This document shows positions 2,482 through 3,480 of a DNA stretch of 7,970 bases, piece by piece; position 1 is the first letter of the stretch; every line of letters starts with the position of its first letter. A program made the position numbers and the translations under genes. Source of the DNA: a virus (taxonomy: Duplodnaviria > Heunggongvirae > Uroviricota > Caudoviricetes); the IMG/VR virus record IMGVR_UViG_2534682078_000012; one strand, written 5' to 3'. Below the pieces are notes generated by a model. That model searched no databases and had not been told where the DNA came from. It saw only the letters and a list, made by a program, of their open reading frames with translations.

Positions 2482-2589
2482 GCAGAATATTTTGCTGAAA
2501 AATGACGTTGGCCAACGCGGCAGATAACACGAAATCCTGCGAACTGGCAAAATGTAAGTGAATAAAGTCAACAAGATTGTTTCATGAAG

Positions 2590-2620
2590 AGGCACCGTAA
2601 TGGTGCCTTTGTCATTTCTG
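2590..2620 (+). terminator. Candidate intrinsic terminator downstream of the endolysin gene
   Basis: 7-bp stem AGGCACC (2590-2596) / GGTGCCT (2602-2608) with 5-nt loop, followed by a T-rich tract TTGTCATTTCTG (2609-2620). Confidence 0.4.
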
Positions 2621-2667
2621 CGCTTCGCACAAGCGTAAATAAACCAAAGAACCTTTCAGGATGAGCC

Positions 2668-2719
2668 CTGGTGGATAACCGGCAGTGGTCTGGTTAACCC
2701 TCTTTGGGCTGGTTATTCC
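2668..2719 (+). promoter_or_regulatory. Three phased copies of a CTGGTTAACC-like decamer upstream of the ant-like gene (putative operator or regulator binding sites)
   Basis: CTGGTGGATAACC (2668-2680), CTGGTTAACC (2690-2699), CTGGTTATTCC (2709-2719), spaced 19-22 bp apart, 35-90 bp upstream of ATG 2755. The core GGTTAACC is palindromic; GGATAACC and GGTTATCC are reverse complements. Confidence 0.3.
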
Positions 2720-2754
2720 TGTGCGCAGGGTTCATCACTAAAAGGAAATAACCG

Positions 2755-3324
2755 ATGAATATGATGACCGTGCCGTTTCACGGCGATTCTCTTTATGTGG
2801 TTAACCATAACGGCGAACCATACGTTCCCATGAAACCTGTCGTTGCGGGGATGGGGCTGGCCTGGCAATCACAGTTGGCTAAGTTAAGACAGCGTTTTGC
2901 GTCAACTATAACGGAAATCGTTATGGTTGCTGAGGATGGGAAACGACGCAATATGGTGTCCCTGCCGCTTCGAAAACTTGCAGGCTGGTTACAAACCATC
3001 AATCCCAACAAAGTAAAACCCGAAATCCGCGGCAAGGTAATCCAGTATCAGGAAGAGTGTGACGATGTTCTCTATGAATACTGGACGAAGGGTTTTGTCG
3101 TTAATCCCCGTCGAATGAGTGTGATGGAAGAACTCAATCAGGCTTGCGCTGACATGAAACGGGATAAAAACATTGCCAGTGTGTTTGCTACCGGGCTGAA
3201 TGAGTGGAAACAGGTTAAATCCGCGCATGTATCAAAAATCCGCACATTGATAAACGAAGCGAATCTGCTGATTGATTTTGTCCTGGCTGATACAGGCAAA
3301 GGGAAAATAACAAAGGCGGATTGA
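2755..3324 (+). CDS. Phage antirepressor-like protein (P22 Ant N-terminal-domain family), 189 aa
   Basis: N-terminus MNMMTVPFHGDSLYVVNHNGEPYVPMKPVVAGMGLAWQSQLAKLRQRF matches the P22 antirepressor N-terminal domain pattern as I recall it; AAAGGAAA Shine-Dalgarno 8 nt upstream; an ant gene between R and Rz is a known arrangement in Stx-type prophages. Confidence 0.7.
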   Translation: MNMMTVPFHGDSLYVVNHNGEPYVPMKPVVAGMGLAWQSQLAKLRQRFASTITEIVMVAEDGKRRNMVSLPLRKLAGWLQTINPNKVKPEIRGKVIQYQEECDDVLYEYWTKGFVVNPRRMSVMEELNQACADMKRDKNIASVFATGLNEWKQVKSAHVSKIRTLINEANLLIDFVLADTGKGKITKAD

Positions 3325-3473
3325 TGGAGTGGTGGCTAATGATATCGGATAAACTCATAACGCTGGCGAAGATCCTCTGTGTAATCGTCGGCATTTCATT
3401 TTTAGTCATGCTGGTTGCCATTTTCTTTTCCACCGCCTGGCGAGTCCTGACGTTATCGGGACTGGTGGGGTGA
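3324..3473 (+). CDS. Small hypothetical single-pass membrane protein (49 aa), not in the supplied ORF track
   Basis: ATG at 3324-3326 overlaps the ant stop TGA (3322-3324) by one base; stop TGA 3471-3473 lies 7 nt before the Rz start. Hand translation: MEWWLMISDKLITLAKILCVIVGISFLVMLVAIFFSTAWRVLTLSGLVG. Alternative start ATG 3339 preceded by GGTGG. It fills the ant-Rz gap exactly. Confidence 0.45.
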   Translation: MEWWLMISDKLITLAKILCVIVGISFLVMLVAIFFSTAWRVLTLSGLVG

Positions 3474-3480
3474 AAGAGAG

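What the first reader, a model, noticed from the sequence alone, without database searches (positions are those of the whole stretch)
2482..3480. Antirepressor-like two-gene insertion inside the lysis operon, between endolysin and spanins
The holin-endolysin pair and the Rz/Rz1 spanins are normally contiguous. Here they are separated by about 1 kb carrying its own terminator-like hairpin (2590-2620), a phased repeat array (2668-2719), an ant-like gene and a translationally coupled 49-aa membrane ORF. That layout is what a self-contained moron looks like. A soluble Ant-N-domain protein paired with a tiny membrane protein and expressed next to lysis genes could be an anti-repressor module, a superinfection-exclusion or abortive-infection pair, or a lysis-timing modulator. 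I cannot tell which from sequence.
Basis: partly seen in the sequence, partly recalled or inferred. Interest (0 to 1): 0.55.

Follow-up and report, generated by a model that had tools for sequence, protein, structure and literature searches.

The report
Rha-like late cassette with RNA leader
The 'antirepressor' gene sitting among the lysis genes of this Shiga-toxin phage has been annotated since 1999; it is a portable late-gene cassette equivalent to the rha gene of phages P22 and phi80, and it carries a conserved folded RNA leader, absent from Rfam, that probably limits how much protein is made.

Summary
The window is the late region of a 933W/P27-type Stx phage. About 1 kb with an Ant-N-domain gene and a small membrane ORF does separate R from Rz. 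This layout has been annotated since 1999 and occurs in 895 of 5426 complete E. coli genomes.

It is not one two-gene moron. Comparison with relatives lacking ant separates three pieces:
- **2482-2566:** a shared spacer.
- **2567-3341:** a one-gene cassette made of a terminator, a structured leader and ant.
- **The small membrane ORF:** it belongs with Rz.

Covariation supports this leader (88.9% of cells paired against 72.8% in shuffles; 23 of 25 pairs with compensatory changes). It also has an extra covarying 7-bp helix. No Rfam family matches it.

The same terminator plus leader precedes domain-swapped Bro-network genes (P22_AR_N, pRha, KilA-N, Bro-N, ANT) next to the lysis genes across Enterobacterales. 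That includes the classical rha genes of P22 and phi80.

Ant lacks the P22 Ant C-terminal domain. Its N-domain model resembles APSES/KilA-N DNA-binding folds.

The most likely reading is a late regulator that depends on Q read-through, is limited by its leader and is harmful in excess. Its function has not been tested.

The parts
1728..1943 (+). Holin S (phage-21 type pinholin family), upstream flank of the lysis cassette.
   Evidence: Pfam Phage_holin_2_1, E 7e-33.
1948..2481 (+). Endolysin R (GH24 lysozyme with a hydrophobic N-terminus).
   Evidence: Pfam Phage_lysozyme, E 3e-24. Annotated as R or endolysin in 933W and P27.
2482..2566 (+). Spacer downstream of R. It is shared with relatives that lack ant and so is not part of the cassette.
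   Evidence: Homology with H-19B, Stx2_14040 and PhiR12_1 runs through to 2566.
2588..2620 (+). Intrinsic-terminator-like hairpin (GGCACC/GGTGCC core) with a T-rich tail. This is the 5' element of the cassette.
   Evidence: Found by the terminator scan. Folds at -16.4 kcal/mol, z -4.0. An equivalent hairpin plus T-run lies 31-51 nt upstream of the leader core in 23 of 28 related loci. It is annotated as a putative terminator in phi80.
2619..2638 (+). Small hairpin (GCGCUU-CGCAC-AAGCGU) between the terminator and the leader.
   Evidence: Folds at -7.2 kcal/mol. Hairpins at the same place but with different sequences occur in the other genera.
2644..2650 (+). Helix X, 5' strand (CCAAAGA).
   Evidence: It pairs with 2701-2707. 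In 28 leaders the cognate strands average 6.96 bp against 4.66 bp for non-cognate pairings (permutation 0 of 10,000), with 21 distinct helix sequences.
2652..2745 (+). Long imperfect hairpin of the leader. It has a basal stem, a middle stem, an asymmetric 3' internal loop, an upper stem and a variable tip. The basal stem CCUUU (2652-2656) pairs with AAAGG (2741-2745).
   Evidence: MFE -43.1 kcal/mol, z -3.35. Model R1 and pair counts: 88.9% of cells paired against 72.8% in shuffles, and 23 of 25 pairs with compensatory change. A second set gives 90.9% against 84.2%. Alignment-free strand test: -37.0 against -21.6 kcal/mol.
2701..2707 (+). Helix X, 3' strand (UCUUUGG), in the apical loop directly 5' of the upper stem's 3' strand.
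2742..2746 (+). Shine-Dalgarno AAGGA of ant, four of its five bases inside the basal stem.
   Evidence: Centroid fold. Across 91 leaders the P(unpaired) of the SD is 0.34, against 0.42 with the upstream part shuffled (Wilcoxon p 2e-4), which is a modest effect.
2755..3324 (+). 'ant': a 189-aa protein made of P22_AR_N (residues 5-113) plus ORF11CD3 (122-164). It has no P22_AR_C domain.
   Evidence: Pfam. 48% identity to residues 1-126 of P22 Ant. Family members are 62-94% identical across Enterobacterales. The model N-domain resembles APSES/KilA-N-like folds and the C-terminal part is a long helix.
3324..3473 (+). Small single-pass membrane-protein ORF of 49 aa from the ATG at 3324. The conserved core of 44 aa starts at the ATG at 3339, which is preceded by GGAG at 3326-3329. 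It belongs with Rz, not with the cassette.
   Evidence: It is present next to Rz without ant in PhiR12_1 and behind a different gene in Stx1a_1602. It matches phrog_4906, of unknown function. Its 62 protein clusters are all from E. coli. pN/pS is 0.36, and 933W has an in-frame indel.
3481..3945 (+). i-spanin Rz, with the o-spanin Rz1 embedded at 3701-3886. This is the downstream flank.
   Evidence: Pfam Phage_lysis, E 2e-49, and Rz1, E 3e-22.

Best explanation
The roughly 1 kb between R and Rz holds three separable things.

(a) 2482-2566 is a spacer shared with relatives that lack ant.

(b) 2567-3341 is a portable one-gene cassette. It consists of:
- an intrinsic terminator;
- a small hairpin;
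- a structured mRNA leader of about 115 nt;
- ant, which encodes the N-terminal domain of P22 antirepressor fused to an ORF11CD3 helix.

(c) A small membrane-protein gene that belongs with Rz.

The cassette is the Stx-phage counterpart of the rha locus of P22 and phi80. It has the same terminator, the same leader and the same position beside the lysis genes. It shares the C-terminal domain family of P22 Rha but has a different N-terminal domain.

Inferred mechanism:
- The cassette has no promoter of its own, so it is reached only by Q-modified late transcription that reads through the terminator.
- The leader limits or gates translation. Its base includes the Shine-Dalgarno sequence, and it has either a pseudoknot or an alternative helix.
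- The product is a dose-sensitive regulator with a DNA-binding-type fold and a coiled coil. It acts late in lytic growth and is harmful if over-made, as Rha is.

What is shown: the anatomy, the conservation, the RNA covariation and the equivalence of the loci. What is inferred: dependence on Q, control of translation, and the protein's activity.
For: **Boundaries**
- Homology with ant-less H-19B and Stx2_14040 stops at 2566 and resumes at 3478.
- PhiR12_1 resumes at 3342 and keeps the small ORF.
- Stx1a_1602 shares R, the terminator and the leader up to 2 nt past the ATG. It then carries an ANT-domain gene, followed by the small ORF and Rz.

**Context**
- The 188-aa family sits between the endolysin and the i-spanin, or just after the spanin, in Serratia, Xenorhabdus, Proteus, Providencia, Hamiltonella, Photorhabdus and Salmonella.
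- At least four endolysin types (GH24, GH108, M15-like, and a ~133-aa protein with no Pfam match inferred from its position after the holin) and two spanin families flank it.

**Leader**
- Model R1 finds it ending at the start codon in 38 places in genome loci and 82 places in viral contigs.
- Pair counts: 88.9% against 72.8% in shuffles, 23 of 25 pairs compensatory, covariation score 0.507 against at most 0.119 when partners are slid; 90.9% against 84.2% in the second set.
- Many conserved G-U pairs point to RNA of the sense strand.
- Alignment-free tests support both the hairpin and helix X.
- A terminator lies upstream in 23 of 28 loci.

**Gene and promoter**
- No promoter-like site on the + strand.
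- The same leader precedes pRha, KilA-N, Bro-N, ANT and P22_AR_N genes.

**Link to rha**
- The leader is found at P22 rha (E 9e-18) and phi80 rha (E 4e-12).
- P22 Rha is pRha + ORF11CD3.
- Rha is reported as detrimental to lytic growth without IHF (PMC4936722; phi80 record note).

**Protein fold**
Against: - No transcript, protein or phenotype data were available for this gene. Q-dependence and translational control are inferences.
- Masking of the Shine-Dalgarno sequence is only modest: P(unpaired) 0.34 against 0.42, lower in 62 of 91 leaders. The leader may therefore do something else, such as act as a processing or protein-binding site.
- The N-domain is the one found in a genuine antirepressor (P22 Ant), so protein-binding activity cannot be excluded.
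- The ORF11CD3 match of this protein is weak (28 bits against a cut-off of 25), and pairwise similarity to P22 Rha is marginal.
- Alignments A5 and A7 were fitted to the model's structure.
- The related sequences are not independent samples.
Confidence: 0.55

Rival explanations
1. It is a genuine antirepressor. The protein binds and inactivates a CI-type repressor, either of its own phage or of co-resident prophages or satellites. Made late, it would lock in lytic growth or induce neighbouring elements.
For: - P22_AR_N at E 8.5e-45, with 48% identity to the first 126 residues of P22 Ant.
- In Gifsy-1, a translationally silent antirepressor-like gene (anrP) in the late region raises antQ expression and induces the phage when it is expressed (PMC4825925).
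- EHEC genomes carry a median of 3 copies and up to 10, so cross-talk between prophages is conceivable.
- The double lock of terminator plus leader fits a product that would destabilise lysogeny.
Against: - It lacks P22_AR_C, which P22 Ant and the phage 2851 Ant protein both have.
- For the studied Phi24B Ant, similarity to P22 Ant lies chiefly in the C-terminal domain.
- There is no arc/mnt/sar-type immI context.
- The same leader and slot hold pRha, KilA-N, Bro-N and ANT proteins, so any shared function does not depend on this N-domain.
- The model N-domain resembles DNA-binding folds.
Confidence: 0.15
2. It is a lysis-timing module. Ant, the small membrane protein, or both modulate the pinholin, the SAR endolysin or the spanins.
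For: - The cassette keeps its position inside or next to lysis cassettes built from unrelated families.
- In Serratia, Proteus and Xenorhabdus the i-spanin start overlaps the ant stop.
- The R-Rz slot of P21-type cassettes repeatedly holds small single-pass membrane ORFs.
- The 933W record itself suggested 'possible regulation of host cell lysis'.
- Accessory lysis regulators encoded inside cassettes are known, for example the Mu releasin (PMC9239132).
Against: - In P22, phi80 and Photorhabdus the cassette follows the spanins.
- The soluble protein has nucleic-acid-binding-type domains.
- The reported Rha phenotype concerns phage growth and DNA synthesis, not lysis.
- The small ORF is confined to E. 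coli and is separable from ant.
- It matches no Pfam family and only a PHROG family of unknown function.
Confidence: 0.1
3. It is a self-contained moron expressed in the lysogen, acting as a superinfection-exclusion or abortive-infection pair.
For: - It is present or absent among related phages.
- Its G+C content is somewhat lower (0.43-0.50) than that of R and the 3' half of Rz (0.52-0.59).
- A soluble protein plus a small membrane protein is a common defence layout.
Against: - No promoter-like site was found.
- The terminator is upstream, so non-antiterminated transcripts stop before the gene.
- There is no terminator before Rz.
- The two genes do not travel together.
- PADLOC was not searched, so defence families were not tested.
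Confidence: 0.07
4. The leader is not a translational gate. It is instead an RNase III or RNase E processing and stability site, or the binding site of a host or phage protein, within the polycistronic late mRNA.
For: - It is a long, nearly continuous duplex of up to about 18 bp with an asymmetric internal loop on the 3' side, which resembles phage RNase III sites (established knowledge of the T7 and lambda N-leader sites).
- Masking of the SD is only modest.
- Sequence conservation exceeds what base pairing alone would require.
Against: - The leader always ends at a start codon.
- It is repeated in front of each gene in tandem arrays, which suggests control of individual genes.
- The basal stem reaches the SD in most members.
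Confidence: 0.2

Closest known systems
rha locus of phages P22 (orf201) and phi80.
   Same: - Position in the late operon beside the lysis genes.
- An upstream terminator.
- The same structured leader, found by model R1 at E 9e-18 in P22 and 4e-12 in phi80.
- The same ORF11CD3 C-terminal domain family, in P22 Rha.

   Different: - The N-terminal domain is P22_AR_N rather than Phage_pRha.
- The cassette lies between R and Rz rather than after Rz/Rz1.
- The Rha phenotype (growth inhibition in IHF-deficient hosts) has not been tested for this gene.
P22 Ant antirepressor (immI region) and the P22-type Ant proteins of Stx phages Phi24B and 2851.
   Same: The N-terminal P22_AR_N domain: 48% identity to P22 Ant and 62% to the phage 2851 Ant over that domain.
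   Different: - It has no P22_AR_C domain.
- It has no Arc/Mnt/sar control.
- Its genomic location differs. Antirepressor-type activity is established for P22 Ant (as summarised in the Phi24B paper) and was tested for the Phi24B protein, whose similarity to P22 Ant lies chiefly in the C-terminal domain.
isrK-orf45-anrP of Gifsy-1 (PMC4825925).
   Same: An antirepressor-like gene in the late region downstream of Q. It is transcribed but kept translationally silent by mRNA structure, and a Rho-independent terminator precedes the coding part.
   Different: - No sequence or Rfam relationship was found: there is no isrK hit.
- There is no leader ORF equivalent to orf45.
- No trans-acting sRNA is known here.
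Morons of lambdoid phages, for example bor and stx.
   Same: Accessory DNA that is present or absent among relatives and lies downstream of pR'.
   Different: There is no promoter of its own, and the terminator lies at the 5' end rather than the 3' end.
Accessory lysis regulators encoded inside lysis cassettes, such as P2 LysA and the Mu gp25 releasin.
   Same: The small membrane ORF occupies the position between endolysin and spanin. The P2 gene order is from my own knowledge; the Mu case is from PMC9239132.
   Different: No homology was found: Pfam gives nothing and the PHROG family has no known function. No functional data exist.

Membership tests
P22 Ant-type antirepressor | N-terminal P22_AR_N domain. 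| tested here: met
   Pfam E 8.5e-45 over residues 5-113. 48% identity to P22 Ant residues 1-126.
P22 Ant-type antirepressor | C-terminal P22_AR_C domain. | tested here: not met
   Absent here. Present in P22 Ant and in the 2851 Ant.
P22 Ant-type antirepressor | immI-type control by an Arc/Mnt repressor gene and sar antisense RNA. | tested here: not met
   The neighbours are R and Rz and there is no arc-like ORF. The P22 and 2851 ant genes sit next to arc-like genes. The leader model does not hit the P22 ant region.
P22 Ant-type antirepressor | Binds and inactivates a phage repressor. | not testable with these tools
   This needs biochemical or reporter assays.
rha-type late cassette (P22 orf201 / phi80 rha) | Lies in the late operon directly beside the lysis genes. 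| tested here: met
   It lies between R and Rz here. In P22 and phi80 the cassette comes after Rz/Rz1.
rha-type late cassette (P22 orf201 / phi80 rha) | An upstream terminator plus the conserved structured leader ending at the start codon. | tested here: met
   Model R1 scores 90.8 bits in the window, 89.2 in P22 and 62.8 in phi80. Terminators were checked.
rha-type late cassette (P22 orf201 / phi80 rha) | Phage_pRha N-terminal domain. | tested here: not met
   This protein has P22_AR_N instead. P22 and phi80 Rha have pRha.
rha-type late cassette (P22 orf201 / phi80 rha) | ORF11CD3 C-terminal domain, as in P22 Rha. | tested here: met
   28 bits against a cut-off of 25 here, and 96.7 bits in P22 Rha. 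The phi80 Rha protein shows no ORF11CD3 hit.
rha-type late cassette (P22 orf201 / phi80 rha) | The product inhibits phage growth in IHF-deficient hosts. | not testable with these tools
   This is a genetic phenotype, reported for Rha only.
Moron (self-contained accessory transcription unit) | A promoter of its own. | tested here: not met
   There is no sigma-70-like site on the + strand within 1600-4700. This is a consensus scan only.
Moron (self-contained accessory transcription unit) | A terminator at the 3' end of the unit. | tested here: not met
   The only terminator is 5' of the gene, and Rz starts 7 nt after the small ORF.
Moron (self-contained accessory transcription unit) | Present or absent among close relatives. 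| tested here: met
   H-19B, Stx2_14040 and PhiR12_1 lack it.
Known RNA families (Rfam 15, including isrK, C4, AsxR/AgvB-type sRNAs) | A match to a curated covariance model. | tested here: not met
   Nothing relevant at E up to 1 over the whole window, or at E up to 10 over 2470-2790.
Known lysis regulators (antiholin or releasin families) | Homology of the small membrane ORF to a described family. | tested here: not met
   No Pfam hit. It matches phrog_4906, of unknown function.

The most novel reading that the evidence does not exclude
The leader is a new and widespread class of phage riboregulator. It would be a bistable or pseudoknotted RNA in which helix X competes or cooperates with the long hairpin. 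It would sense a late-infection signal, such as a protein, a metabolite or the speed of Q-modified transcription. In this way it would gate a whole family of domain-swapped late regulators that are toxic in excess (Rha, KilA-N, Bro-N, Ant-N, ANT). This could explain the old observation that rha expression must be kept in check, which is the IHF-dependent Rha phenotype.
Probability: 0.15. Interest if true: 0.75.

Novelty: new variant of a known kind. Interest (0 to 1): 0.5.

Why it matters
The gene sits in the late operon of the phages that deliver Shiga toxin. It is present, often in several copies, in about one in six complete E. coli genomes. Its function has never been established, and the label 'anti-repressor Ant' is carried from one annotation to the next.

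This analysis gives three things that can be acted on:

1. **A basis for hypotheses.** The gene is the N-domain-swapped equivalent of rha, so the classical Rha genetics offers testable ideas about what it does.
2. **A defined RNA element.** It is supported by covariation, can be mutated, and is present in model phages (P22, phi80, 933W). It probably sets the dose of a family of regulators.
3. **Corrections to annotation.** The annotated rha start codons in P22 and phi80 fall inside the leader. The small membrane ORF next to Rz is a separate gene.

If the leader does gate expression, it would be a further RNA-based control layer in lambdoid late operons. It could also affect replication, lysis or toxin release.

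Tried and rejected
- **Known prophage sRNAs.** AsxR and AgvB map near stx2B, not here. Pas sRNAs lie between the esterase and holin genes. Rfam gave no relevant match.
- **Strong SD sequestration.** I first read the hairpin as a tight ribosome-binding-site lock. Ensemble calculations show only a modest effect, so I softened the claim.
- **Promoter inside the cassette.** The consensus scan found none. The conserved T-run followed by 'TATCT' does not fit a -10 element on inspection.
- **IHF site in the leader.** There is no WATCAANNNNTTR match within 2567-2760, and the count over the whole window is at chance level.
- **RNAalifold on plain MAFFT alignments.** It recovered only part of the structure, or an alternative register, because stem lengths differ between genera. 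I used a covariance-model alignment and alignment-free tests comparing cognate with non-cognate strands instead.
- **Shuffle z-scores for helix X in single sequences.** These were uninformative.
- **Sequence search of the PDB.** No relative was found.
- **Literature searches.** Searches by locus tag, and of the supplements of Tree et al. 2014, found nothing. The search for an RNA motif upstream of KilA-N or Bro-N genes found nothing. Henthorn and Friedman 1995 is not held.
- **HE-PICI paper.** It mentions P22_AR_N and ORF11CD3 only as part of the 'Bro network' of domains.
- **Not done.** A predicted Ant-small ORF complex was not possible with the single-chain tool. PADLOC was not searched.
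Full report
**What the window is.** The 7970-bp window is the late region of a Shiga-toxin-converting lambdoid phage of the 933W/P27 type. The stretch 2400-3560 matches 336 phage records, 120 of them at 99% identity or more. Gene order is:
- the C-terminus of a DUF6645 protein, annotated as NanS/YjhS-like in related records (19-1026);
- DUF1378 (1159-1338);
- pinholin-type S (1728-1943);
- endolysin R (1948-2481);
- 'ant' (2755-3324);
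- a small ORF (3324-3473);
- Rz (3481-3945) with Rz1 (3701-3886);
- bor on the minus strand (3977-4270);
- the terminase subunits, as annotated in the P27 record (neither has a Pfam match here);
- a portal gene cut short by an IS3-family transposase gene.

NCBI's pipeline now names the product 'phage antirepressor N-terminal domain-containing protein'. The cassette DNA is found in 895 of 5426 complete E. coli genomes, with a median of three places per genome and up to ten. The arrangement itself is therefore not new.

**Checking the observation.**
- The coordinates hold.
- The hairpin at 2588-2610 with its T-rich tail looks like a good intrinsic terminator (-16.4 kcal/mol, z -4.0).
- The ant product matches P22_AR_N (E 8.5e-45) and, weakly, ORF11CD3.
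- The start of the 49-aa ORF overlaps the ant stop codon (TGATG).
- The 'phased repeats' at 2668-2719 exist as similar short segments. However, they are not kept as repeats in 933W, and they turn out to be the strands of an RNA helix, as described below.

**Boundaries.** Three phages with the same type of R and Rz lack ant: H-19B, Stx2_14040 and PhiR12_1.
- Their similarity to the window runs 85 nt past the R stop codon, to 2566.
- It resumes at 3478 in H-19B and Stx2_14040, or already at 3342 in PhiR12_1.
- PhiR12_1 keeps a 43-aa homologue of the small ORF directly before Rz, without ant.
- H-19B has a different small membrane ORF at that place.
- In Stx1a_1602 the similarity covers R, the terminator and the non-coding stretch, and stops 2 nt after the ATG. 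A 231-aa ANT(KilAC)-domain gene follows, then the 43-aa small ORF, then Rz.

The 'insertion' is therefore a one-gene cassette at 2567-3341. The small ORF belongs with Rz. Its conserved core starts at the internal ATG at 3339, which has GGAG nine bases upstream.

**The same cassette in other genera.** The 189-aa protein belongs to a tightly conserved family, 62-94% identical, in prophages of Salmonella, Serratia, Xenorhabdus, Photorhabdus, Proteus, Providencia, Hamiltonella, Arsenophonus, Sodalis and others.
- In the loci where neighbouring genes could be identified, nearly all have the gene lying between the endolysin and the i-spanin, or directly after the spanin; the Thorsellia locus and some contig-end or rearranged loci do not.
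- This holds although the flanking lysis genes belong to unrelated families. The endolysins include GH24, GH108, an M15-like peptidase and a ~133-aa protein with no Pfam match, taken as an endolysin only from its position after the holin. The spanins are Rz/Rz1 or DUF2570/LysC.
- In each of these loci a non-coding stretch of about 170-270 nt precedes the gene.

**A conserved structured leader.** When these upstream stretches are lined up, they show a common plan:
- a terminator hairpin with a T-run;
- a small hairpin;
- a conserved element of about 115 nt that ends at the start codon.

Each sequence folds into the same long imperfect hairpin, at -32 to -46 kcal/mol. It has a basal stem that reaches the Shine-Dalgarno sequence, a middle stem, an asymmetric internal loop on the 3' side, an upper stem and a variable tip.

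A covariance model built from eight sequences found the element at 38 places in genome loci and 82 places in viral contigs. In nearly all of them it ends at a start codon (115 of 120).

| Measure | Genome set | Viral set |
|---|---|---|
| Cells paired | 88.9% | 90.9% |
| Cells paired in shuffles | 72.8% (0 of 500 reach the observed value) | 84.2% (0 of 500) |
| Pairs with compensatory change | 23 of 25 | 17 of 25 |
| Covariation score | 0.507 | 0.283 |
| Best covariation score with partners slid | 0.119 | 0.096 |

Those alignments are fitted to the model, so I added tests that need no alignment.
- The 5' and 3' strands from the same locus pair at -37.0 kcal/mol on average. Strands from different loci pair at -21.6 (permutation 0 of 10,000).
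- Many conserved G-U pairs, which would be C-A mismatches on the other strand, point to an RNA of the sense strand.
- A terminator-like hairpin lies 31-51 nt upstream of the core in 23 of 28 loci. The exceptions are mostly second or third copies in tandem arrays.
- No Rfam family matches.

**A second helix.** The seven bases just 5' of the hairpin (window 2644-2650, CCAAAGA) are complementary to the 3' part of the apical loop (2701-2707, UCUUUGG). The same two positions pair in almost every member, with different sequences: CAUGAG/CUCAUG, CUGAGAG/CUCUCAG, CACGAG/CUCGUG, GUCGAA/UUCGAC and so on, 21 variants in all.
- Strands from the same locus form 6.96 bp on average, against 4.66 bp for strands from different loci (0 of 10,000 permutations).
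- The helix is 6 bp or longer in 89 of 91 leaders.
- This helix crosses the long hairpin. It is therefore either a fold-back pseudoknot or part of an alternative conformation that forms first during transcription.
- For 933W the two states are nearly equal in energy. For the others the hairpin is favoured by about 6-21 kcal/mol.
- I cannot tell the two readings apart by computation.

**What the leader does to the ribosome-binding site.** In the window, CCUUU (2652-2656) pairs with AAAGG (2741-2745), inside the AAGGA Shine-Dalgarno sequence. Across 91 leaders the Shine-Dalgarno is unpaired with probability 0.34. With the upstream part shuffled the figure is 0.42 (Wilcoxon p 2e-4; lower in 62 of 91). 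This is a real but modest effect. Translational throttling is my preferred reading, not a demonstrated one. A processing site or a protein-binding site remain possible.

**The leader is the constant part and the gene is the variable part.** The same leader precedes genes with different domain make-up:
- P22_AR_N + ORF11CD3;
- pRha + ORF11CD3;
- KilA-N + ORF11CD3;
- KilA-N + P63C;
- KilA-N or pRha with another shared C-terminal domain;
- Bro-N;
- an ANT-domain protein.

These are the domain-shuffling 'Bro network' proteins. Homologues that have the P22_AR_N domain in other architectures and other places, including P22 ant itself, lack the leader. Because no single domain is shared by all the genes behind the leader, autoregulation through one common domain is unlikely.

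**Link to classical phages.** The model hits P22 at 39535-39649 (E 9e-18) and phi80 at record position 43669-43780 (E 4e-12).
- In both cases the hit lies directly after Rz/Rz1 and a terminator.
- In both cases it ends at an ATG in frame with rha.
- In both records the annotated rha start codon lies inside the hairpin.
- Read from the ATG defined by the leader, P22 Rha is pRha + ORF11CD3.

The Stx-phage 'ant' is thus the positional and regulatory equivalent of rha, with a different N-terminal domain. Rha is reported to be detrimental to lytic growth when IHF is missing. The phi80 record notes 'DNA synthesis inhibition in IHF- hosts'. The primary papers (Mozola and Friedman 1985; Henthorn and Friedman 1995) are not held in the library. 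What I say about them rests on those secondary statements.

**The protein.** P22 Ant and the phage 2851 Ant are P22_AR_N + P22_AR_C. The Stx-phage antirepressor that was studied experimentally, that of Phi24B, resembles P22 Ant chiefly in its C-terminal domain, and it lies upstream of qut in the early region; the phage 2851 Ant gene sits beside an Arc-like gene in the tail region. The window's protein has only the N-domain.
- An AlphaFold model has medium confidence (pLDDT 69.8, with the N-domain at 76-86). It shows a mixed alpha/beta N-domain followed by helices at 89-112 and 123-183.
- No solved relative is found by sequence.

This fits a DNA-binding regulator that oligomerises through its C-terminal helix. 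It does not exclude binding to a repressor protein.

**The small ORF.**
- It is kept as an open frame of 43-49 codons in 62 protein clusters, all from E. coli.
- 933W has an in-frame indel relative to the window.
- pN/pS against PhiR12_1 is 0.36.
- It matches only phrog_4906, of unknown function.
- It has one hydrophobic segment.

It is probably a real gene, one of several alternative small membrane proteins encoded just before Rz in P21-type cassettes. A role in lysis is a reasonable guess without evidence.

**How it most likely works.** These points are shown:
- a portable cassette of terminator, leader and gene;
- its fixed place beside the lysis genes;
- selection on the RNA structure;
- the absence of a recognisable promoter.

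These points are inferred:
- The gene is transcribed only when Q-modified polymerase reads through the terminator. In P22 and in this window, genes of the late operon lie downstream of that terminator: the morphogenetic genes in P22 and the spanin and morphogenetic genes here. Read-through must therefore happen.
- The leader then limits or times translation.
- The product is a late-acting regulator that is harmful in excess.

The combination of a terminator and a leader in front of every member suggests that leaky expression is costly. This agrees with the Rha phenotype and with the Gifsy-1 anrP precedent.

**Novelty and caveats.** The gene arrangement is already known. I found neither the leader RNA, with its extra helix, nor the equivalence with rha described in Rfam or in the searchable literature. 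That library lacks most subscription-journal papers, including the 1995 rha paper, which may discuss the upstream region. There are no expression data. The related sequences are not independent samples. The structure model is of medium quality.

Noticed in passing
window 7172-7941: The portal gene is cut short. Only 82 codons (7172-7420) match the N-terminus of P22-type portal proteins. An IS3-family transposase gene (rve domains) follows on the minus strand at 7423-7941. This prophage copy is probably defective for particle formation.
   Followed up: partly
L208 (P22) 39575 against 39644; L209 (phi80) 18740 against 18776: The annotated start codons of rha in the P22 and phi80 records lie inside the conserved leader hairpin. 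The leader model predicts in-frame ATGs 23 codons downstream in P22 and 12 codons downstream in phi80, each with its own Shine-Dalgarno sequence. The annotated starts are probably over-extended.
   Followed up: partly
window 1026-1101 (minus strand): There is a weak Esr41-like match (22.8 bits against a gathering score of 102). It is a G+C-rich hairpin with a U-run just downstream of the esterase stop codon. A 2026 preprint places PasA and PasC sRNA genes between the sialate esterase and holin genes, which corresponds to this region (1027-1727).
   Followed up: no
window 2482-2566: The 85 nt after the R stop codon are conserved in all P21-type cassettes compared, with or without ant. The stretch begins with a palindrome (2481-2496). 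It could be a 3'-UTR element of R.
   Followed up: no
L003 (H-19B) 1360-1578; L005 (PhiR12_1) 1406-1621 and 1636-1767; L210 2606-2743 and 2746-2877: The R-Rz slot of P21-type lysis cassettes repeatedly holds unrelated small single-pass membrane ORFs (phrog_6632, phrog_1115, phrog_4906), all of unknown function.
   Followed up: partly
L013-L015 (Serratia) 4061-4064; L037 (Proteus) 3066-3073; L023 (Xenorhabdus) 3076-3079: In several genera the start of the i-spanin gene overlaps the stop of the Ant-N gene. Spanin translation may therefore be coupled to translation of the leader-controlled gene.
   Followed up: no
L011 3392-3506 and 4499-4613; L036 and L086 1469-1585, 2392-2506 and (L086 only) 2998-3109; L035 2394-2506 and 3305-3421; L210 1847-1961 and 3417-3529: There are tandem arrays of two or three leader-plus-gene units, each unit with a different Bro-network gene (KilA-N, Ant-N, Bro-N, pRha), within one lysis region. 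Stx1a_1602 has one unit in the R-Rz slot and a second leader directly after Rz.
   Followed up: partly
HQ424691.1 (VT2phi_272), hit H63: The match to the window starts at window position 2761, six bases after the ant ATG, and the record holds a second matching place. This suggests an insertion or rearrangement exactly at the start of ant in that phage.
   Followed up: no
L209 (phi80) 20264-20358: There is a second, weaker leader-like match (44 bits, E 6e-8). It ends at the start of PHI80_66, a gene outside the Bro-network families.
   Followed up: no
window 4679-5485: The small terminase subunit has no Pfam match. It contains a short His/Asp-rich repeat (IDHEIDHKTDHEIDHD).
   Followed up: no
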